From the NCBI RefSeq assembly GCF_058153355.1, contig NZ_CM177019.1: a DNA stretch of 64,000 nt. The stretch is one strand, 5' to 3'. Both the position numbers and the translations under genes were made by a program. Position 1 is the stretch's first letter. The number at the start of each line of letters is the position of its first letter. The notes beneath the pieces were generated by a model that searched no databases, was not told where the DNA came from, and saw only the letters and a list, made by a program, of their open reading frames with translations. Shown piece by piece: positions 8,215-56,779 of the stretch.

Positions 8215-8307
8215 TGTGTCAGGCAGCGTTTCGCGATGACGGGGCGTTGTCTTTTCGGCTTCTCAACCGGGAAGCCGTTCTTATTACCGGACAATGAAGG
8301 GGTAAAG

Positions 8308-11259: not shown

Positions 11260-11261
11260 CG

Positions 11262-11390
11262 TGCTGCCGGATGATCCTGCCTACGGTTCTGGGCTGGGGA
11301 CTTGTAAGCCTGATAAGACGCGTCAAGCGTCGTATCAGGCGCTGAATGTCGGATGTGGCGTGCAGCCTACAAATCACACAAATTCAATTC
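11262..11390. repeat. REP/BIME-like palindromic units
   Basis: gcctgataagacgcgtcaagcgtcgtatcaggcgc and gccggatg/ggcctac-type palindromes. Confidence 0.55.
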
Positions 11391-11405
11391 GTTACGATTA
11401 TCTCG

Positions 11406-11981: not shown

Positions 11982-11997
11982 AAATTATCCTTATTAT

Positions 11998-12258
11998 TTA
12001 TCCAAAGCGGTAGGTGATGCCGAATCCGGAAGGCGGATAGCGCCACTGTTGTAGCGTTTTTTCATCGCACAGCAAACGGCAGGTGCCGCACTCCAGACAA
12101 TTACGATAATCAACGTGCAAATCACCTTCCGGTGTGAGCGAAAAAAGACCAGCCGGACAAGCGTTAATCAACCGTTCTGCCGTCTGGCGCTCAACGGAGT
12201 CAGCCGGAACAATATGTGGCGCATCAGCAGCGCGCCAGAGATTACGGGCTACAGACAT
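11998..12258 (-). CDS. ygcO: ferredoxin-like protein (FixX-like)
   Basis: Cys motif CLECGTCRLLCDEK; likely start MSVARNL. Confidence 0.75.
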   Translation of the reverse strand: MSVARNLWRAADAPHIVPADSVERQTAERLINACPAGLFSLTPEGDLHVDYRNCLECGTCRLLCDEKTLQQWRYPPSGFGITYRFG

Positions 12259-13520
12259 CGAATACTCCTGACAACATCGCCCGCCAGATGCCACAGGCCA
12301 TGACGACGTAAATGACGCCAGAGCAACTGGCGCAGCGGCGGAACAGGTTTATCACCTTGATCCCATAAATCACGGGAAATATCCTGCATTAACACAGGCC
12401 ACTTACGGTACCAGCCCGGGCGTTGCAAAAGCGCCGGAACATGCTGATAGCGCTGTAGAACATCCCACAGCAGGCTGCGCTCTACGTTGTAATGATAAAG
12501 CGGAAACAGATTTTGCGGCTCGCGGTGCTGGCAGGCGCTTATCAGCGTTTGTGCCGCCGCCTGCGCGCCAGTTAGCGCCATATCCATGCCGCGCACGGAA
12601 ATTCCGGTATTGACGCAACTGCGCAACGTATCGCCCACCAGCAGCCAGCCGTTACCGGCGTATTGCACCGGCATACTGTGCAGGCCACCTTCCGGCACCA
12701 GATGCGCGCCATACTCCAGCGATTCCGCGCTTTTGATAAGCTGGCGCACTGCCGGATGCGTTTTAAAGCGGGCCAGCAGCTCGCTTGCCGGAACACGACT
12801 TTGCGTAAGTGAAGAGAGCGGGCAAACAATCCCTAACGAGAGCGTTTGTTGATTAGTATAAAGAAATGCGCCGCCGGGTAAGTCATCACAGATTCCGCCG
12901 CTGAACAGCAACGCTGCGCCTTCGTTATTCTCCAGATGAAAACGTTCTTCAATAGCGGATGTTTCCAGTGAAAGAACTTCTTTGATCCCCAACGCCATCG
13001 CTTCGCCAGCAGGACGAGTCACTAACCCGTGACGCTCAGCCAGGACGCTGTTGGCACCTTCTGCCAGCACCACATAACGGGCGCGGAGAATATCGTCACC
13101 ACAAATAACGCCGCAAACTCTGCCGTTTTCTTCATACAGCGCATCTACCGTCGCACCAGGGATGCATTCGACACCTTCTTTTTCGGCTTCGGCAACCAGC
13201 CACGGATCGAACCGTGCACGTAATACGCTCCAGGATTCACCGCCGGGCTGTAAGCTGGAAAACGTCGTTGCGCCATCCGGCGTTAGCAGAGAAAGACTTT
13301 CGTGAGTGATGCGTCGTTCAAGAGGCGCGGTCAGGTGAAACTGAGGGAGGAGTTCCGCGAGCGCATGGGTGTATAAACGCCCGCCGGAAAGGTTTTTACT
13401 GCCGGGAATTTCAGCGCGTTCCAGTAACAGAACGGATAAACCTGCCCGCGCGCAGCGTAAAGCACAAGCGGTGCCTGCTATACCCGCACCAATAATAATA
13501 ATGTCGCAGTCGTCTTCCAT
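12249..13520 (-). CDS. ygcN: FAD-dependent oxidoreductase (FixC-like)
   Basis: DIIIIGAGIAGTACA dinucleotide-binding motif; likely start MEDDCD. Confidence 0.8.
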   Translation of the reverse strand: MEDDCDIIIIGAGIAGTACALRCARAGLSVLLLERAEIPGSKNLSGGRLYTHALAELLPQFHLTAPLERRITHESLSLLTPDGATTFSSLQPGGESWSVLRARFDPWLVAEAEKEGVECIPGATVDALYEENGRVCGVICGDDILRARYVVLAEGANSVLAERHGLVTRPAGEAMALGIKEVLSLETSAIEERFHLENNEGAALLFSGGICDDLPGGAFLYTNQQTLSLGIVCPLSSLTQSRVPASELLARFKTHPAVRQLIKSAESLEYGAHLVPEGGLHSMPVQYAGNGWLLVGDTLRSCVNTGISVRGMDMALTGAQAAAQTLISACQHREPQNLFPLYHYNVERSLLWDVLQRYQHVPALLQRPGWYRKWPVLMQDISRDLWDQGDKPVPPLRQLLWRHLRRHGLWHLAGDVVRSIRCL

Positions 13521-13597
13521 GTCATGCCCCAGATATCCAGAGCGCAACACCCTAACATAGCGTTACTTAAGGGAAATTGACCGCCGACACACTCTTA

Positions 13598-13963
13598 TCA
13601 TTCGCCGCGATAGATGCAACCTGCGGTGCAGGTTTCTTTCACCATAACCGCACTTAACAGCGGAACAACCGGTTTAACCTGATCCCAAATCCATTTTGCT
13701 AAAACCTCGCTGGTCGGGTTTTCCAGGCCAGGAATATCATTGAGATAATAGTGATCGAGGCGATCATAGGTTGGTTTAAATGCCGCTTTCAGTTCAGCGA
13801 AATCGATAATCCAGCCCGTATGCGGATCGACTTCCCCGGTAATTTCCAGTCGCACCATAAAGGAATGCCCATGCAGGCGACCACATTTATGTCCTTCCGG
13901 GACGTGTGGTAAGCGGTGAGCGGCTTCGAAGGTGAAATCTTTAAATAACGTGGTGGACATCAT
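13598..13963 (-). CDS. queD: 6-carboxy-5,6,7,8-tetrahydropterin synthase QueD
   Basis: 121 aa from [18 protein letters not shown]; CGRLHGHSF zinc motif; ORF-track start 14047 is an upstream extension. Confidence 0.85.
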
Positions 13964-14278
13964 AATTTCTCTACATGACGATAAAACCGCCGTAGAGTAC
14001 CGGAAAGGCTGTTTTTTCGCATTATCTAAAACGACTTTGTTGCGCAAAATCGCTGATTTATCTTAATGATTGGCTAAATTCATTTGTTTTTCATTGGGTT
14101 GGTTAATCTGTTTTGTTGTTAAAGACTATTGCTAAAACAGGTTAGTCGATTTGGTTATTAGTTATCGCTATCCCGTCTTTAATCCACACCGTTCACCCCG
14201 TTAACCTTACCTTCTCTTCTGTTTTATGGGCGCTGACAGGGCGCAGAAACAGCTTTGCTTACTGGAACATAACGACGC

Positions 14279-16084
14279 ATGACGACACAGGTCCCACCTT
14301 CCGCGTTGCTTCCGTTGAACCCGGAGCAACTGGCACGCCTTCAGGCGGCCACGACCGATTTAACTCCCACCCAGCTTGCCTGGGTTTCTGGCTATTTCTG
14401 GGGCGTGCTCAACCAACAGCCTGCTGCGCTTACAGCGACGCCAGCGCCCGCCCCCGCCGCAGAAATGCCGGGTATAACTATTATCTCCGCTTCGCAAACC
14501 GGCAATGCGCGCCGGGTTGCTGAAACATTACGCGATGATTTATTAGCGGCAAAACTGAACGTTAAGCTGGTGAACGCGGGCGACTATAAATTCAAACAAA
14601 TCGCCAGCGAAAAACTGCTCATCGTGGTGACGTCAACGCAAGGTGAAGGGGAACCGCCGGAGGAGGCCGTCGCGCTGCATAAGTTCCTGTTCTCCAAAAA
14701 AGCGCCGAAGCTGGAAAACACCGCGTTTGCCGTGTTTAGTCTCGGCGATAGCTCTTATGAATTTTTCTGCCAGTCCGGGAAAGATTTCGATAGCAAGCTG
14801 GCGGAACTGGGCGGTGAACGCCTGCTCGACCGTGTCGATGCCGACGTTGAATACCAGGCCGCTGCCAGCGAGTGGCGCGCCCGCGTAGTAGATGCTCTTA
14901 AATCGCGTTCGCCTGTCGCGGCACCTTCGCAATCCGTCGCTACTGGCGCGGTAAATGAAATCCACACCAGCCCGTACAGCAAAGACGCGCCGCTGGTGGC
15001 GAGCCTCTCTGTTAACCAGAAAATTACTGGGCGTAACTCTGAAAAAGACGTTCGCCATATCGAAATTGACCTGGGCGACTCTGGCCTGCGTTACCAGCCT
15101 GGCGATGCGCTGTGCGTCTGGTATCAGAACGATCCGGCGCTGGTGAAAGAACTTGTCGAATTGCTGTGGCTGAAAGGCGATGAACCTGTCACCGTCGAGG
15201 GCAAAACGTTGCCTCTGAACGAGGCCCTACAGTGGCACTTCGAACTGACCGTCAACACCTCCAACATCGTTGAGAACTACGCCACGCTAACCCGCAGTGA
15301 AACGCTGCTGCCGCTGGTGGGCGATAAATCGAAGTTACAGCATTACGCCGCGACGACGCCGATTGTCGATATGGTGCGTTTCTCTCCGGCACAGCTTGAC
15401 GCTGAAGCCCTGATTAACTTGCTGCGCCCGCTGACGCCGCGCCTGTATTCCATCGCCTCCTCGCAGGCGGAAGTCGAGAACGAAGTACACGTCACCGTTG
15501 GTGTCGTTCGTTATGACATTGAAGGCCGCGCCCGTGCCGGTGGTGCCTCCAGCTTCCTCGCGGACCGTGTGGAAGAAGAGGGCGAAGTCCGCGTATTTAT
15601 CGAACATAACGACAACTTCCGCCTGCCCGCTAACCCGGAAACGCCGGTGATTATGATTGGCCCAGGCACCGGCATCGCGCCTTTCCGCGCCTTTATGCAG
15701 CAACGCGCCGCTGACGAAGCGCCGGGCAAAAACTGGCTGTTCTTCGGCAACCCACACTTTACCGAAGATTTCCTCTACCAGGTGGAGTGGCAGCGCTATG
15801 TCAAAGAGGGCGTGCTGACACGTATCGATCTTGCCTGGTCGCGCGATCAAAAAGAAAAAATTTACGTACAAGACAAACTGCGCGAACAGGGCGCAGAGCT
15901 GTGGCGCTGGATCAATGACGGTGCCCACATTTATGTCTGCGGCGACGCTAATCGCATGGCGAAAGACGTTGAACAGGCACTTCTGGAAGTGATTGCCGAA
16001 TTTGGTGGCATGGACACCGAAGCGGCGGATGAATTTTTAAGTGAGCTGCGCGTAGAGCGCCGTTATCAGCGAGATGTCTACTAA
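14279..16084 (+). CDS. cysJ: sulfite reductase [NADPH] flavoprotein alpha subunit
   Basis: 601 aa ORF with flavodoxin and FNR-like domains; stop overlaps the cysI start. Confidence 0.95.
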
Positions 16085-17796
16085 TGAACGAAAAACATCC
16101 AGGGCCTTTAGTGGTCGCAGGAAAACTGACAGACGCCGAGCGCATGAAGCTTGAAAGCAACTACCTGCGCGGCACCATTGCGGAAGATTTAAACGACGGT
16201 CTGACCGGCGGCTTTAAGGGCGATAACTTTCTGCTGATCCGCTTCCACGGCATGTATCAGCAGGATGACCGCGACATTCGCGCCGAACGTGCTGAACAGA
16301 AGCTGGAGCCGCGCCACGCGATGCTGCTGCGTTGTCGTCTGCCGGGTGGGGTGATTACCACTAAACAGTGGCAGGCGATCGATAAATTTGCCGGTGAAAA
16401 CACCATTTATGGCAGCATTCGCCTGACCAACCGCCAGACGTTCCAGTTCCACGGCATTCTGAAAAAGAACGTCAAACCGGTGCACCAGATGCTGCACTCG
16501 GTCGGTCTTGATGCGCTGGCGACTGCTAACGACATGAACCGTAACGTACTCTGCACCTCGAACCCTTACGAGTCGCAGCTGCACGCGGAAGCCTATGAAT
16601 GGGCGAAGAAAATCTCTGAACATCTGCTGCCGCGTACCCGCGCCTACGCGGAGATCTGGCTCGATCAGGAGAAAGTCGCCACCACCGATGAAGAACCGAT
16701 CCTCGGTCAGACCTACCTGCCGCGTAAATTCAAAACCACGGTAGTGATCCCACCGCAGAACGATATCGATCTGCACGCCAACGACATGAACTTTGTGGCG
16801 ATCGCGGAAAACGGCAAGCTGGTGGGCTTCAACCTGCTGGTGGGCGGTGGGCTTTCTATCGAACACGGCAACAAGAAAACCTACGCCCGCACGGCGAGCG
16901 AGTTTGGCTATCTGCCACTGGAGCATACGCTGGCGGTGGCGGAAGCGGTCGTTACCACTCAGCGTGACTGGGGTAATCGTACTGACCGTAAAAACGCCAA
17001 AACCAAATACACGCTGGAGCGCGTGGGGGTTGAGACGTTTAAAGCAGAAGTGGAACGTCGCGCGGGGATCAAATTTGAGCCGATCCGTCCATATGAATTT
17101 ACCGGGCGCGGCGATCGTATCGGCTGGGTAAAAGGGATCGACGACAAATGGCACCTGACGCTGTTTATCGAAAATGGCCGAATTCTTGATTATCAGGGGC
17201 GTCCGCTGAAAACCGGCCTGCTGGAGATCGCGAAGATCCACAAAGGTGATTTCCGCATTACGGCGAACCAGAATCTGATCATCGCCGGTGTACCGGAAAG
17301 CGAGAAAGCGAAGATTGAGAAGATCGCCAAAGAGAGCGGATTGATGAATGCCGTCACGCCGCAGCGCGAAAATTCAATGGCCTGCGTGTCATTCCCGACT
17401 TGCCCGTTGGCGATGGCGGAAGCGGAGCGTTTCCTGCCGTCGTTTATCGATAACATCGATAATTTAATGGCGAAACATGGTGTCAGCGATGAGCACATCG
17501 TGATGCGTGTAACAGGCTGCCCGAACGGTTGTGGTCGCGCGATGCTGGCGGAAGTGGGCCTGGTGGGTAAAGCGCCGGGTCGCTACAACCTGCATCTTGG
17601 TGGCAACCGCATTGGGACACGTATCCCACTGATGCATAAAGAAAACATCACCGAGCCGGAAATCCTGGCGACGCTTGATGAACTGATAGGGCGCTGGGCG
17701 AAAGAACGTGAAGCGGGTGAAGGCTTCGGCGACTTTACGGTGCGTGCGGGCATCATTCGCCCGGTGCTCGATCCGGCGCGTGATTTGTGGGATTAA
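16084..17796 (+). CDS. cysI: sulfite reductase [NADPH] hemoprotein beta subunit
   Basis: 570 aa ORF; operon context with cysJ and cysH. Confidence 0.95.
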
Positions 17797-17812
17797 CCAT
17801 CAGTCCAGTCTT

Positions 17813-17850
17813 GTAGGCCTGATAAGACGCGTAAGCGTCGCATCAGGCAA
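17813..17850. repeat. REP palindromic unit
   Basis: gtaggcctgataagacgcgtaagcgtcgcatcaggc. Confidence 0.6.
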
Positions 17851-17869
17851 GGCAAACAGTGAGGAATCT

Positions 17870-18604
17870 ATGTCCAAACTCGATCTAAATGCCCTGAACG
17901 AACTGCCGAAGGTAGATCGCATTCTGGCGCTGGCGGAAACTAACGCCGAGCTTGAAAAACTGGATGCTGAAGGCCGCGTTGCCTGGGCGCTGGATAATCT
18001 GCCCGGTGAATATGTGCTTTCTTCCAGCTTCGGTATCCAGGCGGCGGTTAGCCTGCATCTGGTGAATCAGATTCGCCCGGATATTCCGGTGATCCTCACC
18101 GATACCGGTTATCTGTTTCCGGAAACCTACCGCTTTATTGACGAGTTAACGGACAAACTCAAGCTCAACCTGAAAGTGTACCGCGCTACCGAAAGCGCCG
18201 CCTGGCAGGAAGCACGCTACGGCAAACTGTGGGAGCAGGGCGTTGAAGGCATTGAAAAGTACAACGATATCAACAAAGTCGAACCGATGAACCGGGCGCT
18301 GAAAGAACTGAACGCACAAACGTGGTTTGCTGGCCTGCGCCGTGAACAATCCGGCAGCCGCGCTAATTTACCGGTGTTGGCAATTCAGCGTGGCGTATTT
18401 AAAGTGCTGCCGATTATCGACTGGGATAACCGAACTATTTATCAGTATCTGCAAAAACATGGCCTGAAATATCACCCATTATGGGACGAAGGATATTTAT
18501 CGGTTGGTGATACCCATACAACCCGTAAATGGGAACCTGGTATGGCGGAAGAAGAAACGCGTTTCTTTGGCTTAAAAAGGGAATGTGGGCTGCACGAAGG
18601 GTAA
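17870..18604 (+). CDS. cysH: phosphoadenosine phosphosulfate reductase
   Basis: 244 aa from [14 protein letters not shown]; ORF-track start 17708 is an upstream extension across the REP. Confidence 0.9.
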
Positions 18605-18770
18605 ATATTGCCGGATAAAATAAACGCCTCTGTCAGAAATGATGGGGGCGTTTTTATTTTGCGAGCCGCATTCCGGCATTTAAACGTGAATATAGCAGGG
18701 GAAATCAACAGTTATAGAATGGCGTCGGGTGCTTGAGGCTGTCTGGTGTTGAGCATTCGCGAGGTTCCAG

Positions 18771-18874
18771 ATGGACAAAAGCCCCAGGCGATATATCTAT
18801 CAACCTGAGGCTTACGTTCGAACCCAAACAATTCGAATGTTAGTCTCTTCTTTGCAGGGAGGCAAGACATGCTG
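18771..18874 (+). CDS. Mok-like leader ORF overlapping the hok start (translational coupling)
   Basis: ATG 18771 to TGA 18872-18874, overlapping the hok ATG at 18869; arrangement typical of hok/mok loci. Confidence 0.3.
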
Positions 18875-19021
18875 ACAAAATATGCCCTTGTGGCAATCAT
18901 CGTACTGTGTTGTACAGTACTGGGATTCACGCTGATGGTAGGCGACTCGTTGTGTGAGTTGAGTATCAGAGAACGTGGTATGGAGTTTAAGGCAGTTCTC
19001 GCTTACGAACCGAAGAAGTAG
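18869..19021 (+). CDS. Hok/Gef-family type I toxin (HokE-like membrane peptide)
   Basis: 50 aa [50 protein letters not shown]; close to my recollection of K-12 HokE (not checked against a database); below the ORF-track length cutoff. Confidence 0.7.
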
Positions 19022-19259
19022 CCACCACGCGGGGGTAAAACCCCGCGTATTGAATTGTGATGGTTTGGTCTCCTGCACCCTTTTTTTCATTTATATTGTT
19101 TTTGTGAATATTATGCCTGTGTTTATTATTTATATATATCACAGATGAAAATCATTGAATTATTCATAATGTAAATATTTTATTGAACGATATATATCAC
19201 AGATAATTTTTAATATATGCGTAAATATCCTTTAAGTTTTACTGAAGGATAAAAACATT

Positions 19260-20936
19260 GTGACTTTCTTTGATTTCTGGGGAAAAACCCGACGTGGCGA
19301 GAAAGAGGGTGGCGACGATTATCACCTTCTTTGCTGGCATTCGCTGGATGTAGCCGCGATAGGCTATTTAATGGTCAAAAACAACTGTTTCGGGCTGGCT
19401 GACTATTTTCGTCAATTAGGTTTCGCTGACACGGATCAGGCAGCACAATTTTTCGCCTGGTTGTTGTGCTGGCACGATACTGGAAAATTTGCCCGCTCAT
19501 TTCAGCAACTTTACCTGCACCCACAACTCAAGGTTCCGGAAGGCGCAAGAAAGAATTACGAAAAGATCTCTCATTCAACGCTGGGTTACTGGTTGTGGCA
19601 TCATTATTTAATTGAATGTGAAGAGTTGCTTCCTTCATCTTCACTCTCTTTGCGCAAACTTAAACGGGTAATAGATATGTGGATGCCCGTGACGACCGGG
19701 CATCATGGTCGGCCTCCTGACCGTATCGATGAACTGGACAACTTTCTACCTGAAGACAAAGCTGCCGCACGAGATTTTCTCCTTGAAATCAAGGTACTGT
19801 TTCCGCTCATCGAGATCCCTACATTCTGGGATGATGACGAGGGCGTTGAACTTATAAAACATCTTTCCTGGTATATATCTGCAACCGTCGTACTCGCAGA
19901 CTGGACGGGATCGTCAACGCGGTTTTTTCCACGCGTCGCACATGTAATGGATATTAAAGATTACTGGCAGAATGCTTTAGCTCAGGCTCAAAACGCATTA
20001 ACCGTCTTTCCTCCAAAAGCAGAAACCGCACCTTTCACTGGAATTAACACGCTGTTTCCTTTTATTGAGAACCCAACACCGTTACAGCAAAAGGTGCTGG
20101 ATCTGGATATCAGCCAGCCAGGACCGCAGTTGTTTATTCTGGAAGATGTGACTGGCGCAGGTAAAACAGAAGCGGCGCTTATCTTGGCGCACAGGTTGAT
20201 GTCTGCGGGGAAAGCACAGGGTTTGTTTTTTGGCCTGCCAACAATGGCAACGGCCAATGCCATGTACGATAGGCTGGTAAAAACCTAGCTTGCTTTCTAT
20301 TCGCCACAATCCCGCCCCAGCCTGGTGCTGGCACACAGCGCTCGTTCGCTAATGGATCGCTTTAACGCATCGCTGTGGTCTGGTGATTTTGTGGGGTCAG
20401 AAGAACCGGATGAACAAGCGTTCAGTCAGGGATGTGCGGCCTGGTTTGCTGACAGTAACAAGAAGGCGTTGCTGGCTGAAATTGGCGTCGGCACGCTGGA
20501 TCAGGCGATGATGGCGGTGATGCCGTTCAAACATAATAATCTGCGGCTTCTGGGGCTGAGTAACAAAATCCTGCTAGCCGATGAGATCCACGCCTGTGAC
20601 GCTTATATGTCGTGCATTCTTGAAGGGCTGATCGAGCGGCAGGCGCGTGGCGGAAACAGCGTTATTTTGCTTTCTGCTACGTTGTCTCAACAGCAGCGTG
20701 ACAAACTCGTCGCCGCCTTTGCGCGTGGTGCAGAGGGCCAGCAAGAAGCTCCGTTGCTGGAAAAAGATGATTATCCCTGGCTGACGCATGTCACGAAATC
20801 CGATGTGCATTCGCACCGGGTAGCGACGCGCAAAGACGTTGAGCGCAGCGTGAGTGTGGGTTGGCTTCATAGCGAACAAGAGTGTATTGCGCGTATCGAA
20901 TCGGCGGTAAGGTGTTCCCCGCGCCAGCGGGGATAA
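19260..20936 (+). pseudogene. cas3: cas3 (type I-E) pseudogene: in-frame TAG at 20286-20288 and 3' truncation into a CRISPR repeat
   Basis: HD-nuclease motifs (WHSLDVAA, WHDTGKF) and helicase Walker A (TGAGKTEAAL); ORFs 19260-20288 and 20325-20936 are in the same frame separated by one amber codon; the frame ends inside the first repeat; total about 557 codons versus about 890 expected. Confidence 0.75.
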
Positions 20937-46575: not shown

Positions 46576-47098
46576 GTGAATCGTTTTGTAATTGCTGACT
46601 CCACGCTCTGTATCGGCTGCCACACCTGTGAGGCCGCCTGTTCAGAGACGCATCGCCAGCACGGCCTGCAATCAATGCCGCGCCTGCGAGTGATGCTAAA
46701 TGAAAAAGAATCTGCGCCGCAGCTCTGTCACCACTGTGAAGATGCACCCTGTGCGGTGGTCTGCCCGGTTAACGCTATCACCCGCGTTGATGGGGCAGTG
46801 CAGCTGAATGAAAGCCTGTGCGTAAGCTGCAAACTGTGCGGCACCGCCTGCTCCGGCGCGTGTCAGCACGTTGCTTGACTGGGTGCCGGGTATACGCGCG
46901 ATCGCCGTCAAATGTGACCTCTGTAGCTTTGATGAACAAGGTCCAGCCTGCGTGCGGATGTGCCCAACCAAAGCCCTGCATCTGGTGGATAACACCGATA
47001 TCGCCCGCGTCAGCAAGCGTAAGCGTGAGCTGACCTTTAACACGGACTTTGGCGATCTCACCTTGTTTCAGCAGGCTCAAAGTGGAGAGGCTAAATGA
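46576..47098 (+). pseudogene. hycB: hycB (formate hydrogenlyase 4Fe-4S subunit) disrupted by a frameshift, consistent with an internal deletion of about 89 bp
   Basis: N-terminal 100 aa frame (two complete Cx2Cx2Cx3CP clusters and the start of a third) stops at 46878; the C-terminal 75 aa (LLDWVPGIRAIAVKCDLCSFDEQGPACVRMCP...) continues in another frame; combined span 523 bp versus about 612 bp expected. Confidence 0.6.
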
Positions 47099-48921
47099 GC
47101 GCAATTTCCCTGATCAATAGCGGCGTGGCGTGGTTTGTTGCTGCCGCTGTTCTGGCATTTCTCTTTTCTTTTCAAAAGGCGTTAAGCGGCTGGATTGCCG
47201 GAATTGGCGGCGCGGTGGGTAGCCTGTATACGGCAGCCGCAGGCTTCACTGTGCTGACTGGCGCGGTTGGCGTGAGCGGCGCGTTGTCGCTGGTAAGCTA
47301 CAATGTGCAAATCTCTCCGCTTAATGCGATTTGGCTGATAACCCTCGGCCTGTGCGGTCTGTTTGTCAGCCTTTACAACATTGACTGGCATCGCCATGCG
47401 CAGGTGAAATGCAACGGTTTGCAAATCAATATGTTGATGGCTGCTGCCGTCTGTGCCGTCATTGCCAGCAATCTGGGCATGTTCGTAGTAATGGCAGAAA
47501 TCATGGCCCTGTGTGCGGTGTTCCTCACCAGCAACAGCAAAGAGGGCAAACTGTGGTTTGCGCTGGGGCGTCTTGGCACTTTGCTGCTGGCGATTGCTTG
47601 CTGGCTGCTGTGGCAACGTTACGGCACGCTGGATCTGCGCCTGCTGGATATGCGCATGCAACAGCTGCCGCTTGGTTCCGATATCTGGCTGCTCGGTGTG
47701 ATTGGTTTTGGCCTGCTGGCCGGGATTATCCCGCTGCACGGCTGGGTGCCACAGGCTCATGCTAACGCCTCTGCGCCAGCTGCCGCGCTGTTTTCCACGG
47801 TGGTGATGAAAATTGGCCTGCTGGGTATTTTAACCCTGTCTCTGCTGGGCGGTAATGCGCCGCTGTGGTGGGGAATTGCACTTCTGGTACTCGGCATGAT
47901 CACCGCGTTCGTCGGCGGTCTGTATGCGCTGATGGAGCACAACATTCAGCGTCTGCTGGCTTACCACACTCTGGAAAATATCGGCATCATCCTGCTGGGG
48001 CTGGGCGCTGGCGTAACGGGTATCGCGCTTGAACAACCGGCGCTGATTGCCCTTGGTCTGGTCGGTGGTCTGTACCATCTGCTTAACCATAGCCTGTTCA
48101 AGAGCGTACTGTTCCTCGGGGCTGGGAGCGTCTGGTTCCGTACCGGTCATCGCGATATTGAAAAACTCGGCGGTATTGGCAAAAAAATGCCGGTTATCTC
48201 CATCGCCATGTTGGTCGGTCTGATGGCAATGGCTGCGCTGCCACCGCTGAACGGTTTTGCCGGGGAATGGGTTATCTATCAATCCTTCTTCAAACTGAGC
48301 AATAGTGGCGCGTTTGTTGCTCGTCTTCTCGGGCCGCTGCTCGCCGTGGGGCTGGCAATTACCGGTGCGCTGGCAGTGATGTGTATGGCGAAAGTTTATG
48401 GCGTTACTTTCCTTGGCGCGCCGCGTACCAAAGAAGCCGAAAACGCCACCTGTGCGCCGCTCCTGATGAGCGTAAGCGTAGTGGCACTGGCGATTTGCTG
48501 CGTGATTGGCGGTGTTGCTGCGCCGTGGCTGCTGCCGATGTTGTCTGCTGCCGTACCTCTGCCGCTGGAGCCTGCTAATACAACCGTTTCTCAACCAATG
48601 ATCACGTTGCTGCTGATTGCCTGCCCACTTCTGCCATTCATCATTATGGCGATTTGCAAAGGCGACCGTCTGCCGTCGCGTTCCCGCGGCGCTGCCTGGG
48701 TATGTGGCTACGACCATGAAAAATCAATGGTGATTACCGCTCACGGTTTTGCCATGCCGGTGAAACAGGCATTTGCGCCAGTGCTGAAACTGCGCAAATG
48801 GCTGAATCCGGTGTCGCTGGTACCAGGCTGGCAGTGCGAGGGGAGTGCGTTGCTGTTTCGCCGGATGGCGCTGGTTGAACTGGCGGTGCTGGTGGTGATT
48901 ATTGTTTCACGAGGAGCCTGA
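47095..48921 (+). CDS. hycC: formate hydrogenlyase membrane subunit 3 (NuoL-like)
   Basis: 608 aa polytopic membrane ORF. Confidence 0.9.
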   Translation: MSAISLINSGVAWFVAAAVLAFLFSFQKALSGWIAGIGGAVGSLYTAAAGFTVLTGAVGVSGALSLVSYNVQISPLNAIWLITLGLCGLFVSLYNIDWHRHAQVKCNGLQINMLMAAAVCAVIASNLGMFVVMAEIMALCAVFLTSNSKEGKLWFALGRLGTLLLAIACWLLWQRYGTLDLRLLDMRMQQLPLGSDIWLLGVIGFGLLAGIIPLHGWVPQAHANASAPAAALFSTVVMKIGLLGILTLSLLGGNAPLWWGIALLVLGMITAFVGGLYALMEHNIQRLLAYHTLENIGIILLGLGAGVTGIALEQPALIALGLVGGLYHLLNHSLFKSVLFLGAGSVWFRTGHRDIEKLGGIGKKMPVISIAMLVGLMAMAALPPLNGFAGEWVIYQSFFKLSNSGAFVARLLGPLLAVGLAITGALAVMCMAKVYGVTFLGAPRTKEAENATCAPLLMSVSVVALAICCVIGGVAAPWLLPMLSAAVPLPLEPANTTVSQPMITLLLIACPLLPFIIMAICKGDRLPSRSRGAAWVCGYDHEKSMVITAHGFAMPVKQAFAPVLKLRKWLNPVSLVPGWQCEGSALLFRRMALVELAVLVVIIVSRGA

Positions 48922-48923
48922 GA

Positions 48924-49847
48924 ATGAGTGTTTTATATCCGTTAATTCAGGCGCTGGTGTTATTTGCCGTTGCGCCGCTGCTCTCCGGTATTACCCGCGT
49001 GGCGCGCGCCCGCTTGCATAACCGTCGCGGGCCGGGCGTGTTGCAGGAGTATCGCGACATTATCAAACTGCTGGGTCGTCAGAGCGTTGGTCCCGATGCC
49101 TCCGGCTGGGTGTTCCGCCTGACACCGTACGTAATGGTTGGCGTCATGTTGACTATCGCTACCGCGCTGCCGGTAGTGACTGTCGGTTCTCCGCTGCCGC
49201 AACTGGGGGATTTGATCACTTTACTGTATCTCTTCGCCATTGCGCGTTTCTTCTTTGCCATTTCTGGTCTGGATACCGGTAGTCCGTTTACTGCTATTGG
49301 CGCGAGCCGTGAAGCGATGCTGGGCGTGCTGGTTGAACCGATGCTGCTGCTTGGTCTGTGGGTCGCCGCGCAGGTGGCCGGTTCCACCAACATCAGCAAC
49401 ATCACCGACACCGTTTATCACTGGCCGCTGAGCCAGAGCATTCCGCTGGTGCTGGCGCTCTGTGCCTGCGCATTCGCCACCTTTATCGAAATGGGCAAAC
49501 TGCCGTTCGACCTGGCGGAAGCCGAGCAGGAGCTGCAGGAAGGTCCGCTCTCTGAGTACAGCGGCAGCGGCTTTGGCGTCATGAAATGGGGTATCAGCCT
49601 GAAACAGCTGGTGGTGTTACAGATGTTCGTCGGGGTGTTTATTCCGTGGGGACAAATGGAAACCTTCACTGCCGGTGGGCTGCTGCTGGCGCTGGTGATT
49701 GCCATCGTCAAACTGGTGGTCGGCGTACTGGTTATCGCGCTGTTCGAAAACAGCATGGCCCGTCTGCGTCTTGATATTACACCACGCATTACCTGGGCTG
49801 GTTTTGGCTTTGCATTTTTAGCGTTCGTCTCCTTGCTGGCGGCGTGA
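48924..49847 (+). CDS. hycD: formate hydrogenlyase membrane subunit 4 (NuoH-like)
   Basis: 307 aa membrane ORF. Confidence 0.9.
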   Translation: MSVLYPLIQALVLFAVAPLLSGITRVARARLHNRRGPGVLQEYRDIIKLLGRQSVGPDASGWVFRLTPYVMVGVMLTIATALPVVTVGSPLPQLGDLITLLYLFAIARFFFAISGLDTGSPFTAIGASREAMLGVLVEPMLLLGLWVAAQVAGSTNISNITDTVYHWPLSQSIPLVLALCACAFATFIEMGKLPFDLAEAEQELQEGPLSEYSGSGFGVMKWGISLKQLVVLQMFVGVFIPWGQMETFTAGGLLLALVIAIVKLVVGVLVIALFENSMARLRLDITPRITWAGFGFAFLAFVSLLAA

Positions 49848-49864
49848 TTAAAGAGAGTTTGAGC

Positions 49865-51574
49865 ATGTCTGAAGAAAAATTAGGTCAACATTATCTCGCC
49901 GCGCTGAATGAGGCATTTCCGGGCGTCGTGCTGGACCACGCCTGGCAGACCAAAGATCAGCTGACTGTCACCGTGAAGGTGAACTATCTGCCGGAAGTGG
50001 TGGAGTTCCTCTACTACAAGCAGGGGGGCTGGCTGTCGGTGCTGTTTGGTAACGACGAACGCAAACTGAATGGTCATTACGCCGTTTATTACGTGCTGTC
50101 GATGGAGAAGGGCACCAAGTGTTGGATTACGGTTCGCGTCGAAGTTGACGCCAACAAACCAGAATATCCGTCCGTGACGCCGCGCGTTCCGGCGGCGGTG
50201 TGGGGCGAGCGTGAAGTGCGCGATATGTACGGTTTGATTCCGGTAGGGCTTCCGGATGAACGCCGTCTGGTGCTGCCGGATGACTGGCCGGATGAACTCT
50301 ACCCTCTGCGTAAAGACAGCATGGATTATCGTCAACGTCCGGCACCAACTACTGATGCTGAAACCTACGAGTTCATCAACGAACTGGGCGATAAGAAAAA
50401 CAATGTCGTGCCGATTGGTCCGCTGCACGTCACTTCTGACGAACCGGGCCACTTCCGTCTGTTCGTTGATGGCGAAAACATTATCGACGCCGACTACTGC
50501 CTGTTCTATGTCCATCGCGGCATGGAAAAACTGGCGGAAACCCGCATGGGTTACAACGAAGTGACCTTCCTCTCTGACCGAGTTTGTGGGATCTGCGGCT
50601 TTGCCCACAGCACCGCTTACACCACATCGGTGGAAAACGCGATGGGTATTCAGGTGCCAGAACGTGCGCAGATGATCCGCGCCATTTTGCTGGAAGTGGA
50701 ACGCCTGCACTCGCATCTGCTCAACCTTGGCCTTGCCTGCCACTTTACTGGCTTTGACTCCGGTTTTATGCAGTTCTTCCGCGTGCGTGAAACCTCCATG
50801 AAAATGGCGGAGATCCTTACCGGTGCGCGTAAAACCTACGGCCTGAACCTGATCGGCGGGATTCGTCGCGATCTGCTGAAAGACGACATGATCCAGACCC
50901 GTCAACTGGCGCAACAAATGCGTCGTGAAGTACAGGAGCTGGTGGATGTGCTGCTGAGTACGCCAAACATGGAACAGCGCACTGTCGGCATTGGTCGTCT
51001 GGACCCGGAAATTGCCCGCGACTTCAGTAACGTCGGCCCGATGGTCCGCGCCAGTGGTCACGCCCGCGATACCCGCGCCGATCACCCGTTTGTTGGCTAT
51101 GGCTTACTGCCAATGGAAGTTCACAGTGAGCAGGGCTGCGATGTGATTTCCCGTCTGAAAGTGCGTATCAACGAAGTCTATACCGCGCTGAACATGATTG
51201 ACTACGGTCTGGATAACCTGCCGGGCGGCCCGCTGATGGTGGAAGGCTTTACCTACATTCCGCACCGTTTTGCGCTGGGCTTTGCCGAAGCGCCGCGTGG
51301 CGATGATATCCACTGGAGTATGACCGGCGACAACCAGAAGCTGTACCGCTGGCGCTGCCGTGCCGCGACCTACGCGAACTGGCCGACCCTGCGCTACATG
51401 CTGCGCGGCAACACCGTTTCTGATGCGCCGCTGATTATTGGTAGCCTGGACCCTTGCTACTCCTGTACCGACCGCATGACCGTGGTCGATGTGCGTAAGA
51501 AGAAGAGCAAAGTGGTGCCGTACAAAGAACTTGAGCGCTACAGCATTGAGCGTAAAAACTCGCCGCTGAAATAA
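49865..51574 (+). CDS. hycE: hydrogenase 3 large subunit
   Basis: 569 aa from MSEEKLGQHYL; N- and C-terminal Cys motifs; ORF-track start 49844 is an upstream extension. Confidence 0.9.
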   Translation: MSEEKLGQHYLAALNEAFPGVVLDHAWQTKDQLTVTVKVNYLPEVVEFLYYKQGGWLSVLFGNDERKLNGHYAVYYVLSMEKGTKCWITVRVEVDANKPEYPSVTPRVPAAVWGEREVRDMYGLIPVGLPDERRLVLPDDWPDELYPLRKDSMDYRQRPAPTTDAETYEFINELGDKKNNVVPIGPLHVTSDEPGHFRLFVDGENIIDADYCLFYVHRGMEKLAETRMGYNEVTFLSDRVCGICGFAHSTAYTTSVENAMGIQVPERAQMIRAILLEVERLHSHLLNLGLACHFTGFDSGFMQFFRVRETSMKMAEILTGARKTYGLNLIGGIRRDLLKDDMIQTRQLAQQMRREVQELVDVLLSTPNMEQRTVGIGRLDPEIARDFSNVGPMVRASGHARDTRADHPFVGYGLLPMEVHSEQGCDVISRLKVRINEVYTALNMIDYGLDNLPGGPLMVEGFTYIPHRFALGFAEAPRGDDIHWSMTGDNQKLYRWRCRAATYANWPTLRYMLRGNTVSDAPLIIGSLDPCYSCTDRMTVVDVRKKKSKVVPYKELERYSIERKNSPLK

Positions 51575-51583
51575 GGAATCGCC

Positions 51584-52126
51584 ATGTTTACCTTTATCAA
51601 AAAAGTCATCAAAACCGGCACGGCGACCTCGTCTTACCTGCTGGAGCCGATTGCGGTTGATAAAAACTTCCGTGGTAAGCCAGAGCAGAACCCGCAGCAG
51701 TGCATCGGCTGTGCAGCCTGCGTCAATGCCTGCCCGTCAAACGCCTTAACGGTTGAAACTGACCTCGCCACCGGTGAGCTGGCGTGGGAGTTCAATCTTG
51801 GACGCTGCATCTTCTGTGGACGCTGCGAAGAAGTCTGCCCGACGGCGGCGATCAAACTGTCGCAAGAGTACGAACTGGCGGTGTGGAAGAAAGAAGATTT
51901 CCTGCAACAGTCTCGCTTCGCGCTGTGCAACTGCCGCATCTGTAATCGTCCTTTCGCCGTCCAGAAAGAGATCGACTACGCCATTGCGCTGCTTAAGCAC
52001 AATGGTGACAGCCGTGCGGAAAACCACCGCGAAAGCTTTGAGACTTGCCCGGAATGTAAGCGCCAGAAATGCCTGGTGCCGTCCGACCGTATTGAACTGA
52101 CTCGCCATATGAAAGAGGCCATCTGA
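51584..52126 (+). CDS. hycF: formate hydrogenlyase iron-sulfur subunit
   Basis: 180 aa ORF with 4Fe-4S motifs. Confidence 0.9.
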
Positions 52127-52893
52127 TGAGCAATTTATTAGGCCCCCGTGACGCCAACGGCATTCCGGTCCCGATGACGGTGGATGAATCCATCGCCAGT
52201 ATGAAGGCGTCGTTACTGAAAAAAATCAAACGTTCTGCCTACGTTTACCGCGTGGACTGCGGCGGCTGCAACGGCTGCGAAATTGAAATTTTCGCAACCT
52301 TATCGCCGCTGTTCGATGCAGAACGCTTCGGCATTAAAGTCGTTCCGTCTCCGCGTCATGCGGATATTTTACTGTTTACCGGCGCGGTCACCCGTGCAAT
52401 GCGATCCCCTGCGCTGCGTGCGTGGCAGTCCGCGCCGGACCCGAAAATCTGTATCTCCTACGGTGCCTGCGGTAACAGCGGCGGGATCTTCCACGATCTC
52501 TACTGCGTGTGGGGGGGGACGGATAAAATCGTCCCGGTGGATGTCTACATTCCGGGGTGCCCGCCAACGCCAGCCGCCACGCTGTACGGCTTTGCAATGG
52601 CGCTCGGCCTGCTGGAGCAGAAAATTCACGCCCGTGGGCCGGGTGAACTGGATGAACAACCGGCAGAGATCCTGCATGGCGATATGGTGCAGCCGCTGCG
52701 TGTAAAAGTAGATCGCGAAGCACGCCGCCTGGCGGGTTATCGTTACGGTCGCCAGATTGCCGATGATTTCCTGACGCAGTTAGGGCAGGGTGAAGAGCAG
52801 GTTGCACGCTGGCTGGAAGCGGAAAACGATCCGCGTCTGAACGAGATTGTCAGCCATCTGAATCATGTTGTTGAAGAGGCGCGTATTCGATGA
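52126..52893 (+). CDS. hycG: hydrogenase 3 small subunit
   Basis: 255 aa ORF. Confidence 0.9.
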
Positions 52894-53300
52894 GTGAAAA
52901 GGTGGTGTTCAGTCAACTGAGCCGTAAATTTATTGATGAGAACGATGCTACGCCCGCCGAGGCGCAGCAGGTGGTCTATTACAGCCTGGCGATTGGTCAC
53001 CACCTTGGGGTTATCGATTGCCTGGAAGCCGCGCTCACCTGCCCGTGGGATGAATATCTGGCATGGATTGCCACTCTGGAGGCGGGCAGCGAAGCCCGCC
53101 GCAAAATGGAAGGCGTGCCAAAATATGGTGAGATCGTTATCGACATTAACCATGTGCCGATGCTGGCCAACGCATTCGATAAAGCCCGGGCAGCGCAAAC
53201 TTCGCAGCAGAAGGAATGGAGTACCATGCTGTTAAGTATGCTGCATGATATTTATCAGGAAAATGCCATCTATTTGATGGTGAGGAGACTGCGTGACTGA
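52890..53300 (+). CDS. hycH: formate hydrogenlyase maturation protein HycH
   Basis: 136 aa ORF. Confidence 0.85.
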
Positions 53301-53763
53301 CGTTTTACTCTGTGTTGGCAATAGCATGATGGGCGATGATGGCGCAGGTCCGCTGCTGGCGGAAAAGTGCGCCGCCGCGCCGAAAGGTAACTGGGTGGTG
53401 ATTGACGGCGGAAGCGCACCGGAAAATGACATTGTCGCCATCCGCGAACTGCGCCCGACGCGACTGCTGATTGTCGACGCTACGGATATGGGGCTAAACC
53501 CCGGCGAGATCCGCATCATCGACCCGGATGACATCGCTGAGATGTTTATGATGACTACCCATAACATGCCGCTGAACTACCTTATCGACCAGTTAAAAGA
53601 AGACATTGGCGAAGTGATTTTCCTCGGCATCCAGCCGGATATCGTCGGTTTTTACTACCCGATGACCCAGCCGATTAAAGATGCGGTAGAAACCGTTTAT
53701 CAACGACTTGAAGGCTGGGAAGGGAATGGTGGATTTGCGCAGTTAGCGGTGGAAGAAGAGTAG
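53293..53763 (+). CDS. hycI: hydrogenase 3 maturation endopeptidase
   Basis: 156 aa ORF. Confidence 0.9.
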   Translation: MTDVLLCVGNSMMGDDGAGPLLAEKCAAAPKGNWVVIDGGSAPENDIVAIRELRPTRLLIVDATDMGLNPGEIRIIDPDDIAEMFMMTTHNMPLNYLIDQLKEDIGEVIFLGIQPDIVGFYYPMTQPIKDAVETVYQRLEGWEGNGGFAQLAVEEE

Positions 53764-53805
53764 TTTTTCAGTAAGGAATTCAGGGAATTGAAAATCAGAA
53801 CAGGG

Positions 53806-54156
53806 ATGTGCGCTTTTTTATTTTGCTTAGTGCTTCCTACGCAGGCTACCAGCTTTACCGAATATCTGCCAATGAGTGACAGCGAATACGCGCAAAAGCG
53901 GGCGCTGAAACCTCTCCTGACTATGCCTTATTATACCGAGCAAACCTGGCATTTTAGAAAAGTGGGCGTTGCTGGCGTGACGCTTGAGAAGATGCCAAAT
54001 GAAGAGGATTACTGGCAATTAACTGCTAAAGACCGCGCCGGTAAATCCTGGAAGGTGCCTGTGGGTATGCTGGCAAATATGGCGGGCAAAGGGCAACTCT
54101 ATCGCGCCGATCTGGATCGTAACGGCATTCAGGATCTGGTTACCAAGTGCTGGTAA
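53806..54156 (+). CDS. hypothetical secreted protein (islet ORF 1)
   Basis: ORF 53788-54156 with signal-peptide-like N-terminus MCAFLFCLVLPTQA from ATG 53806; no recognised domain. Confidence 0.4.
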   Translation: MCAFLFCLVLPTQATSFTEYLPMSDSEYAQKRALKPLLTMPYYTEQTWHFRKVGVAGVTLEKMPNEEDYWQLTAKDRAGKSWKVPVGMLANMAGKGQLYRADLDRNGIQDLVTKCW

Positions 54157-54187
54157 TGGTCTGGCTCCTTATGCACATTTAATCCTT

Positions 54188-54553
54188 ATGACGTTCACGC
54201 GCGATGGTCGTCCCTGTGTCTTTGAACCCTGGGGATTCTACACCGCAAGCAAAACTGGCGTAGATGATTTGCTGGATTTGCAAGGCAATGGCCACACACA
54301 ATTGCTGGATATGCAGTTTAATTCTGGTTACTGGATAACCAGTCTGTATCAGGTAAAAGACGCCAAATGGCAACGTGTTCACGGCTGGTTTGGCAAGTTA
54401 AGCTATCCCGCGCTCACGCGTTTTACTTATACCCCCAACCGTAAACTCGTCCTCAAACCCATTGCCGGGCGTGACCCGCAAACGGAAGATTTAGCGCTGA
54501 CGCAGCGTTGTTTGATAACAGGGGATGTGCTTGATGGGGTGAATCAGAACTGA
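54188..54553 (+). CDS. hypothetical protein (islet ORF 2); possibly the C-terminal part of a frameshifted gene with ORF 1
   Basis: 121 aa ORF; its frame is open upstream to 54023, overlapping ORF 1 in another frame. Confidence 0.35.
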   Translation: MTFTRDGRPCVFEPWGFYTASKTGVDDLLDLQGNGHTQLLDMQFNSGYWITSLYQVKDAKWQRVHGWFGKLSYPALTRFTYTPNRKLVLKPIAGRDPQTEDLALTQRCLITGDVLDGVNQN

Positions 54554-54715
54554 CTTTTTGCAGAGTGGGTATGAGGATTTTGGGGGAGAATTATATCGCG
54601 CGCAAGTGTTTACATATTGTGAACTTGGATTTGGTGAGCTATAGTTTCTGAACACATAAGGATAGAACTCGCAGATGTGGCTGTTTACTTACTATAAGGA
54701 AGTTAAAACTTAAAA

Positions 54716-55027
54716 ATGCACATCATTTCGAAAGCGCCATTTGAAGAGTCTGCGCGCAAATATCCTAACGACGCTCTGGCTCTACACTCATTGTATCGGG
54801 TTATTAAGGAAACGGATTTTTCTACGCCAGAAGAAATGCGAACGGCGTTTCCCAACCTCGACAATTTTAAATATCGCAACAAATGGTACGTTCTGGATGT
54901 CGGCGGGAACAATCTTAGGGTTATTGCCTACATAAACTTTGTTAATAAGCGGTTCTTTGTGAAGCACATAACGAATCATGCCGAGTATGACAAACTGACA
55001 CGTTACTACAGAGAGAACAAAGAATGA
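54716..55027 (+). CDS. higB: HigB-family type II toxin (RelE/ParE superfamily)
   Basis: 103 aa; shares FPNLDNFKY and VGGNNLRV with my recollection of K-12 HigB. Confidence 0.8.
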   Translation: MHIISKAPFEESARKYPNDALALHSLYRVIKETDFSTPEEMRTAFPNLDNFKYRNKWYVLDVGGNNLRVIAYINFVNKRFFVKHITNHAEYDKLTRYYRENKE

Positions 55028-55443
55028 CTGCTAATGCTGCACGCGCTGTTAAAGCAACAAGAGAACTGGTCAATGCAGTCCCCTTTCTGGGAGGCAGTGA
55101 CTCAGAAGATGATTATCGTGAAGCACTGGAACTGGTCGAATATTTGATTGAAGAAGATGACACCAATCCACTTATCGACTTTCTGGCGAGCCGCATTGCA
55201 GAGTATGAAAACAACCACGAAAAGTTTGCAGAGTTCGACAAAGCCGTTGCTGCAATGCCGGTTGGCGTGGCGTTACTTCGCACGTTGATTGATCAACATA
55301 ATCTGACCTATGCGGATTTGAAGAACGAAATCGGCTCTAAATCCCTGGTCAGTCAGATTTTGTCTGGACAAAGATCCCTGACGATATCCCACATTAAGGC
55401 ACTTTCAGCCCGATTTGGCGTTAAGCCGGAATGGTTTCTTTGA
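55024..55443 (+). CDS. higA: HigA-family antitoxin (HTH, XRE family)
   Basis: 139 aa; start overlaps the higB stop (ATGA); recalled HigA-like motifs including IGSKSLVSQILSG. Confidence 0.8.
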   Translation: MTANAARAVKATRELVNAVPFLGGSDSEDDYREALELVEYLIEEDDTNPLIDFLASRIAEYENNHEKFAEFDKAVAAMPVGVALLRTLIDQHNLTYADLKNEIGSKSLVSQILSGQRSLTISHIKALSARFGVKPEWFL

Positions 55444-55488
55444 TTTTGACTGATGCCAAACGCCAGATTGCCCGATGCGCAACGCTTA

Positions 55489-56718
<1,230 letters not shown>

Positions 56719-56748
56719 CATGCCTGCAATCTGGGAAACCGGGGTAGA

Positions 56749-56779
<31 letters not shown>

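What the first reader, a model, noticed from the sequence alone, without database searches (positions are those of the whole stretch)
53788..54553. Two overlapping unknown ORFs that may be one frameshifted secreted protein
ORF 1 (53788-54156, signal-peptide-like N-terminus) and ORF 2 (54188-54553) lie in different frames. The ORF 2 frame is open upstream to 54023, so both frames are open across 54023-54156. A single indel there would fuse them into one protein of about 240 aa. Both halves contain Asp/Gly-rich motifs (DLDRNG, DLQGNG) reminiscent of calcium-binding or FG-GAP-like repeats. This could be a pseudogene, a sequencing error, or two coupled small genes.
Basis: seen in the sequence. Interest (0 to 1): 0.45.

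Follow-up and report, generated by a model that had tools for sequence, protein, structure and literature searches.

The report
Frameshifted periplasmic gene after hycI
The two small ORFs are the halves of one E. coli gene for an uncharacterised secreted protein, broken by loss of one copy of an 8-base tandem repeat that also gains and loses copies in other strains; it is an ordinary young pseudogene with a neat mutational hotspot.

The parts
53788..54156 (+). 5' half of the pseudogene (ORF1). It encodes the signal peptide plus the first ~98 mature residues, then 4 out-of-frame residues (TKCW) and a stop.
   Evidence: Identical to intact alleles up to the junction.
53773..53777 (+). Shine-Dalgarno-like AAGGA, 10 nt upstream of the TTG start at 53788. 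The TTG/GTG-AAA-AT start context is shared with Salmonella and K. spallanzanii.
   Evidence: Sequence; homologue N-termini. That this is the true start is an inference; PGAP uses the ATG at 53806.
53788..53847 (+). Predicted Sec signal peptide, MKIRTGMCAFLFCLVLPTQA, probably cleaved after TQA. There is no lipobox.
   Evidence: Read from the sequence. AlphaFold gives a low-confidence N-terminal helix at residues 4-13. No dedicated predictor was available.
54109..54135 (+). First FG-GAP-like calcium-loop motif, D-L-D-R-N-G-I-Q-D (residues 108-116). D108, D110, G113 and D116 are at least 90% conserved in the family.
   Evidence: near-invariant columns; aligns to the integrin alpha-V FG-GAP calcium loops, E 0.02, sub-threshold.
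54134..54141 (+). The single remaining ATCTGGTT unit and the site of the lesion. Intact alleles have two tandem units here; other strains have 3 or 4.
54142..54553 (+). 3' half of the pseudogene in the shifted frame. The annotated ORF2 (54188-54553) starts at an internal Met with no Shine-Dalgarno sequence and no signal peptide.
54275..54310 (+). Second FG-GAP-like motif, DLQGNGHTQLLD. It is bracketed by 14-nt direct repeats (54269-54282 and 54302-54315) that mediate a 33-bp in-frame deletion in another strain.
   Evidence: (P0193).
53293..53763 (+). hycI, the last named gene of the formate hydrogenlyase operon. The pseudogene starts 24 bp after its stop on the same strand, with no terminator-like site between them.
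   Evidence: Salmonella transcript data.

Best explanation
The region is one gene, the unnamed tenth gene of the hyc (formate hydrogenlyase) cluster. It is present in about a quarter of E. coli genomes and in Salmonella (orthologue by position, STM2844), and it is inactivated here by a recent slipped-strand deletion. The intact gene contains a perfect 8-bp tandem duplication (ATCTGGTT x2, encoding D-L-V-I-W-L in a core beta-strand just after the first calcium-loop motif). Replication slippage removed one unit, shifting the frame by -8. Translation from the native start now ends after 122 codons. The downstream 121-codon ORF has no ribosome-binding site or signal peptide and is probably not expressed. 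The intact product is a periplasmic, mostly-beta protein with two FG-GAP-like calcium-loop motifs, probably co-transcribed with hyc under FhlA/sigma-54 control. Its biochemical role is unknown. My best guess, at about 20% probability, is a periplasmic binding or inhibitor protein of the PliI / XAC2610 / CarG structural kind. Shown: the lesion, its recurrence, purifying selection on intact copies, synteny, and co-induction in Salmonella. Inferred: the slippage mechanism, secretion, lack of ORF2 expression, and the function.
Confidence: 0.92

Rival explanations
1. Sequencing or assembly artefact: the isolate really has two ATCTGGTT units and the gene is intact.
For: No reads were available. Tandem repeats can collapse in consensus polishing. 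None of 5,426 complete E. coli genomes carries this exact allele.
Against: Exact ORF1 and ORF2 products and a contig 100% identical over 8,675 bp occur in independent Logan short-read assemblies. The same 8-bp loss is present in two finished genomes on a different background. An 8-bp unit loss is not a typical error of any platform.
Confidence: 0.04
2. Two genuine, translationally coupled small genes.
For: Both ORFs are intact and about 120 codons long, separated by only 31 bp.
Against: All intact homologues are single genes. ORF2 starts at an internal Met of the ancestral protein with no Shine-Dalgarno sequence and no signal peptide. The break falls inside a predicted core beta-strand, residues 116-122. 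The split is confined to rare alleles, about 1%.
Confidence: 0.01
3. A contingency (phase-variable) switch: the 8-bp repeat is maintained because reversible gain and loss of units turns the periplasmic protein off and on.
For: Copy numbers 1, 2, 3 and 4 all occur in nature, with at least two independent contractions and two independent expansions plus a 3-to-4 step on one background. The perfect repeat is conserved between E. coli and Salmonella inside the gene's longest identical nucleotide run (35 nt versus 15 for the next longest) despite dS of about 1.5.
Against: The ancestral state has only two units, far below the tracts of classical contingency loci. About 99% of carriers have two copies. 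Other E. coli and E. albertii alleles have an imperfect repeat. The gene is also lost through unrelated deletions and frameshifts, as expected for a dispensable gene. No within-strain heterogeneity could be examined.
Confidence: 0.05
4. Programmed +1 ribosomal frameshifting joins ORF1 and ORF2 into one product.
For: The frames overlap over 134 nt.
Against: Intact alleles need no frameshift. The overlap is explained fully by an 8-bp deletion. A +1 shift could not restore the missing residues (I-W-L) of the core strand. No conserved slippery or stimulatory element exists, because the overlap is found only in mutant alleles.
Confidence: 0.01

Closest known systems
Slipped-strand frameshift pseudogenes / short-tandem-repeat indel hotspots in bacterial coding regions
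   Same: There is a tandem repeat inside an ORF. Unit loss and gain, and not point mutation, cause the frameshifts. The events recur on independent backgrounds.
   Different: The unit is 8 bp and the wild type has only two copies, so this is a low-rate hotspot (about 1% of carriers) and not a hypermutable tract.
Salmonella Typhimurium STM2844 (unnamed gene after hycI, sigma-54/FhlA regulon; PMC3844500)
   Same: Orthologue by position (between hycI and hydN) and by sequence (the Salmonella protein P0008 is 69% identical). It has the same 2 x ATCTGGTT repeat and is co-induced with hycH and hycI.
   Different: The Salmonella copy is intact and 269 aa as called. No function has been published for it either.
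PliI-Ah (PDB 3od9) / X-Tfi XAC2610 (4qtq) / CarG (4o7j): periplasmic peptidoglycan-hydrolase inhibitor and immunity-type beta proteins
FG-GAP / FG-GAP_3 repeats (Pfam PF01839, PF13517; integrin alpha-type calcium-binding beta-propeller blades)
   Same: The DxDxNGxxD loop is present, with D108, D110, G113 and D116 conserved. Half of the family members hit FG-GAP_3, and the profile aligns to the integrin alpha-V calcium loops.
   Different: There are only two motif copies in about 200 residues, not a 7-bladed propeller. The window protein itself is below all Pfam thresholds.

Membership tests
Frameshifted pseudogene | Reading frame disrupted relative to intact orthologues that are single CDSs | tested here: met
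   intact single CDSs elsewhere; an 8-bp deletion here.
Frameshifted pseudogene | The lesion is real in the organism and not an assembly error | tested here: inconclusive
   The identical allele appears in three Logan short-read contigs, but reads for this window were not available and independence of the isolates is unknown.
Slipped-strand hotspot / contingency locus | Tandem repeat within the ORF whose copy number differs among strains | tested here: met
   1, 2, 3 and 4 copies of ATCTGGTT.
Slipped-strand hotspot / contingency locus | Long hypermutable tract and frequent switching (high fraction of off variants, within-strain heterogeneity) | tested here: not met
   The wild type has 2 units. 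About 8 of 796 complete genomes are off through this site. Within-strain heterogeneity is not testable here.
FG-GAP repeat proteins (Pfam PF01839 / PF13517) | Score above the Pfam gathering threshold | tested here: not met
   The window protein has 0 hits at E <= 10. Relatives P0062 and P0063 pass, and 48 of 96 members reach E <= 0.01.
FG-GAP repeat proteins (Pfam PF01839 / PF13517) | DxDxDGxxD-type calcium-binding loop | tested here: met
   D108-L-D-R-N-G-I-Q-D116 with conserved D, D, G, D. It aligns to the integrin alpha-V loops. Actual calcium binding was not tested.
FG-GAP repeat proteins (Pfam PF01839 / PF13517) | Closed multi-bladed beta-propeller | tested here: inconclusive
PliI / XAC2610 / Tsi1-type periplasmic peptidoglycan-hydrolase inhibitors | Shared fold | tested here: inconclusive
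PliI / XAC2610 / Tsi1-type periplasmic peptidoglycan-hydrolase inhibitors | Periplasmic location (signal peptide) | tested here: met
   A classical signal peptide in Escherichia, Salmonella and Klebsiella and in distant homologues. Read by eye, with no predictor.
PliI / XAC2610 / Tsi1-type periplasmic peptidoglycan-hydrolase inhibitors | Adjacent cognate effector or hydrolase gene (for immunity proteins) | tested here: not met
   The neighbours are hycI and HigBA, hydN or ParDE. There is no conserved neighbour in 8 non-enteric loci. Stand-alone Pli-type inhibitors do not need one.
PliI / XAC2610 / Tsi1-type periplasmic peptidoglycan-hydrolase inhibitors | Inhibition of a lysozyme or peptidoglycan hydrolase through an inserted loop | not testable with these tools
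   Needs biochemistry or a complex structure.
hyc (formate hydrogenlyase) operon | Same strand, short gap, no terminator, conserved position after hycI | tested here: met
   24-bp gap; no terminator-like site; synteny in E. coli, Salmonella and K. spallanzanii.
hyc (formate hydrogenlyase) operon | Co-transcription or co-regulation | tested here: inconclusive
   Salmonella STM2844 is 9.4-fold sigma-54-dependent, alongside hycI at 12-fold. No E. coli transcript data were examined.

The most novel reading that the evidence does not exclude
The 8-bp repeat is a selected, reversible on/off switch (copy numbers 1, 3 and 4 off; 2 on) for a periplasmic, calcium-binding inhibitor-like protein expressed with formate hydrogenlyase. 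That would make it a rare case of octanucleotide-repeat phase variation in E. coli, controlling a new family of envelope-protection proteins.
Probability: 0.05. Interest if true: 0.6.

Novelty: new member of a known kind. Interest (0 to 1): 0.3.

Why it matters
For the window itself it matters little: the region should be annotated as one frameshifted pseudogene and not two hypothetical proteins. Three by-products are mildly useful. First, an 8-bp two-unit repeat acts as a recurrent, bidirectional indel hotspot (1 to 4 copies in natural E. coli), which can mislead gene callers and pan-genome counts. Second, an unnamed but selectively constrained periplasmic protein family sits as a tenth hyc-cluster gene in Salmonella and many non-K-12 E. 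coli. It is sigma-54/FhlA co-induced in Salmonella, absent from K-12, and so has gone unstudied. Third, the family is otherwise mostly acidobacterial, has no Pfam or NCBIfam model, and gives confident AlphaFold models, so it is a tractable target for functional work.

Tried and rejected
Pfam, NCBIfam, PADLOC and PDB sequence searches of the repaired protein returned no hits. Foldseek against the PDB found nothing significant, and the afdb50 library was unavailable. The profile search against PDB sequences gave only sub-threshold integrin FG-GAP loops. A conserved-neighbour analysis of 8 non-enteric loci found no shared partner gene, and the contexts of distant homologues P0048, P0051 and P0056 were uninformative. 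Literature searches for hycI/ascB/higB context and for STM2844 in main text found nothing useful. Truncated Salmonella forms (P0019, P0023, P0033, P0046) were checked for the same hotspot and break elsewhere. A synthetic 4-copy query found no 4-copy allele in complete genomes. I considered and rejected programmed frameshifting and coupled small genes (see rivals).

Full report
**1. Observation**

The ORF list and raw sequence show ORF1 at 53788-54156 (+, TTG start, 122 aa) and ORF2 at 54188-54553 (+, ATG start, 121 aa) in different frames. Translating 54023-54553 in the ORF2 frame gives no stop. The neighbours upstream are hycG (52126-52893), hycH (52890-53300) and hycI (53293-53763). Downstream lie a HigB/HigA toxin-antitoxin pair (54716-55443), an IS621 copy, and then ascB, ascF, ascG and hydN. 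The window is E. coli; the closest complete genome is strain EC42405, about 99% identical over this neighbourhood.

**2. It is one gene, and the lesion is an 8-bp repeat-unit loss**

- A megablast of 53764-54715 against 5,426 complete E. coli genomes found the region in 2,299 of them, with at least 80% coverage in 1,461.
- In EC42405, O111:H11 88-19539, FDAARGOS_1255, M9 and GPT24-02 the homologue is a single CDS of 744-756 bp annotated 'hypothetical protein'.
- The DNA alignment shows a single structural difference. Intact alleles read CAGG-ATCTGGTT-ATCTGGTT-ACC, and the window reads CAGG-ATCTGGTT-ACC.
- One unit of a perfect 8-bp tandem duplication is missing; the surviving unit is at 54134-54141.
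- Re-inserting 8 bp yields one ORF of 774 nt: 257 aa from the TTG at 53788, or 251 aa from the ATG at 53806 that PGAP prefers.
- In the mutant, the native frame runs four aberrant codons (TKCW) to a stop at 54154-54156.
- ORF2 begins at what is an internal Met of the ancestral protein. It has no Shine-Dalgarno sequence (…CACATTTAATCCTTATG) and no signal peptide, so I infer that it is not a functional gene.

**3. The site is a recurrent, bidirectional hotspot**

- Strains A30 and E10 have lost exactly the same unit, but on a different allele. The SNPs flanking the junction within ~10-50 bp match the O111-type intact allele and not the window's allele. PGAP marks both 'frameshifted'.
- The protein database held variants whose sequences suggested expansions. 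Their DNA confirms this.
- Three units occur in GCA_907177185.1 and at least 24 contigs from NCBI, Logan and ENA.
- Four units occur in 3 Logan contigs on that same background. The intact two-unit form of that background is seen in GPT24-02.
- Independent three-unit alleles on the O111-type background occur in the complete genomes 13E0767, 16F5M1D1, OkiPb01716 and JNE23-001 (100% to the 3-copy query), in OkiPb01714 (verified), and probably in OkiPb01692. Two of them, 13E0767 and OkiPb01714, were inspected, and PGAP marks both 'frameshifted'.
- No complete genome has four units.
- There are therefore at least two independent contractions, two independent expansions, and a further 3-to-4 step. 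About 8 of the 796 complete genomes that cover this segment, roughly 1%, are out of frame through this site.
- This is the signature of slipped-strand mispairing. The mechanism is inferred from the pattern.
- Alleles of the FDAARGOS_1255 / E. albertii type have an imperfect repeat (ATTTGGTTATCTGGCG).

**4. Real mutation or error?**

- The exact ORF1 and ORF2 products are on record from Logan assemblies of public runs.
- One of these contigs (SRR28786219) is 100% identical to the window over 8,675 bp, positions 46839-55513. It stops where IS621 begins in the window.
- Two more contigs carry the same proteins.
- Together with the finished-genome cases above, this makes an artefact unlikely (I put it at about 4%). 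I could not see the reads behind this window, and the Logan runs may be the same clone.

**5. The inactivation is recent and the intact gene is functional**

- Apart from the deletion, the window differs from EC42405 at four positions.
- Three of those are EC42405-specific. Only one is unique to the window: Ala to Thr at position -3 of the signal-peptide cleavage site.
- Nei-Gojobori dN/dS among intact E. coli alleles and against Salmonella and K. spallanzanii is 0.13-0.24. That is clear purifying selection.
- The gene is nevertheless dispensable in the long run. E. coli genomes show a decay series:
  - intact gene plus HigBA;
  - intact gene plus HigA only (M9);
  - a 61-codon 5' remnant (WP4-S18-ESBL-09);
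  - complete absence (HS-02).
- Other strains carry unrelated frameshifts or in-frame deletions.
- The E. albertii type strain and several Salmonella lineages have their own lesions.

**6. What the intact protein is**

- The repaired protein has no hit in Pfam, NCBIfam, PADLOC or PDB sequences.
- An exhaustive HMMER search found 230 cluster representatives at E <= 1e-3. Most are 330-360 aa.
- The enterobacterial proteins (250-269 aa) correspond only to the N-terminal ~240 residues and lack a ~95-aa C-terminal domain.
- Outside Escherichia, Salmonella and K. spallanzanii, the genome hits are mainly Acidobacteriota MAGs, plus Thiolinea and an Obscuribacterales MAG. This suggests an old horizontal acquisition by enterics (inference).
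- The N-terminus (MKIRTGMCAFLFCLVLPTQA|TS) has the n-h-c layout of a Sec signal peptide and no lipobox, and homologues share this.
- D108, D110, G113 and D116 (A-DLDRNGIQD-LV) are at least 90% conserved and align to the calcium loops of the integrin alpha-V FG-GAP repeats (E 0.02, sub-threshold).
- Scanned individually, 48 of 96 family members hit FG-GAP_3 and 25 hit FG-GAP at E <= 0.01. Of ten members tested against gathering thresholds, P0062 and P0063 exceed them.
The window protein itself is below threshold, and the protein is too small to be a canonical seven-bladed propeller.

**7. Structure**

- AlphaFold2 on a 96-sequence alignment gave a confident model: pLDDT 92.7, pTM 0.88, mostly beta.
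- The frameshift falls in predicted strand 116-122.
- Foldseek against the PDB found nothing.
- A second, independent model of a 351-aa acidobacterial member (pLDDT 92.7) returned the same analogues, with PliI-Ah on top.
- PMC10933484 describes XAC2610, PliI-Ah and Tsi1 as sharing a beta-propeller-like topology and as peptidoglycan-hydrolase inhibitors that act through an inserted loop.
- This gives a testable hypothesis, a periplasmic binder or inhibitor, but the scores are too low for membership, and no partner gene is conserved next to the family.

**8. Expression context**

- The gene starts 24 bp after the hycI stop, on the same strand, with no terminator-like or good promoter-like site between them.
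- It holds the same position in Salmonella (27-bp gap, between hycI and hydN) and in K. spallanzanii.
- In S. Typhimurium LT2 the sigma-54 regulon study lists the operon as 'STM2853-44 hycABCDEFGHI-' under FhlA.
- Its supplementary table gives STM2844 a 9.4-fold sigma-54-dependent induction, next to hycI at 12-fold and hycH at 6.4-fold.
- I equate STM2844 with the orthologue by position (inference).
- The protein is thus most likely made together with formate hydrogenlyase during fermentative growth. Why a periplasmic protein should be is unexplained.

**9. Comparison and verdict**

- The finding is a correctly spotted, ordinary, young pseudogene: one gene broken by loss of one unit of a two-unit 8-bp repeat.
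- It should be annotated as a single frameshifted CDS.
- The extras are a small natural copy-number series (1 to 4) at the same site, and an unstudied, selectively constrained periplasmic FG-GAP-like family attached to the hyc cluster in non-K-12 enterics.
- The contingency-switch reading is not excluded, but it is unlikely (about 5%) given two ancestral units and about 99% 'on' alleles.
- Interest is 0.3.
- Novelty: a new member of a known kind.

Noticed in passing
window 55497-56774 (transposase ORF 55689-56669): A complete IS621 (IS110 family) copy is inserted between higA and ascB. It is absent at this site in EC42405, whose sequence is continuous across the insertion point, and the short-read contig L025 ends just before it. 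Strain E10 also has an IS621 in this intergenic region.
   Followed up: partly
window 54716-55443: A HigB/HigA-type toxin-antitoxin pair lies between the pseudogene and ascB. Across E. coli the module varies: both genes present, HigA only (M9, WP4-S18-ESBL-09, E10), or absent. K. spallanzanii has ParDE and SymE-like genes at the equivalent place, so this is a small hotspot for toxin-antitoxin cargo.
   Followed up: partly
window 54269-54282 and 54302-54315: 14-nt direct repeats (TTGCTGGAT[T/A]TGCA, 33 bp apart) exactly bracket an 11-codon in-frame deletion (LQGNGHTQLLD, the second FG-GAP-like motif). The deletion is seen in E. coli protein HBB7144440.1 (P0193). This is a second repeat-mediated lesion site in the same gene.
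   Followed up: partly
window 53788-54553 versus L003, L016: Intact E. coli alleles of this gene differ by dS up to about 0.5 (the FDAARGOS_1255 type against the others), and the divergent type shares its imperfect-repeat sequence with the E. albertii copy. Whether this reflects inter-species recombination or ancient balanced alleles was not examined.
   Followed up: no
window 54115-54141 region; L006 around 6364-6398: The longest run of identical nucleotides between the E. coli and Salmonella genes is 35 nt (GATCGTAACGGCATTCAGGATCTGGTTATCTGGTT), against 15 nt for the next longest, and it ends exactly at the end of the 8-bp repeat, even though dS is about 1.5. It is mildly unusual and unexplained.
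   Followed up: partly
L016 (E. albertii NBRC 107761), match 6001-6770: The E. albertii type-strain copy is also disrupted: the ORF from the conserved start is only 402 nt, and the match spans 770 nt where the intact gene has 771. This is a different lesion from the window's.
   Followed up: no
L014 (MAG labelled Collinsella sp., 1,647-bp contig): A contig binned as an actinobacterial Collinsella MAG carries an Escherichia-type copy of this gene (85% identical at protein level). This is almost certainly binning contamination.
   Followed up: no
L017 2004-3005 and 3014-4024 (Bryobacterales MAG): Two tandem paralogues of the family sit side by side. L018 has three similar-sized ORFs in a row, which I did not confirm as paralogues. 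Tandem arrays are common for immunity-type genes but are not specific to them.
   Followed up: no
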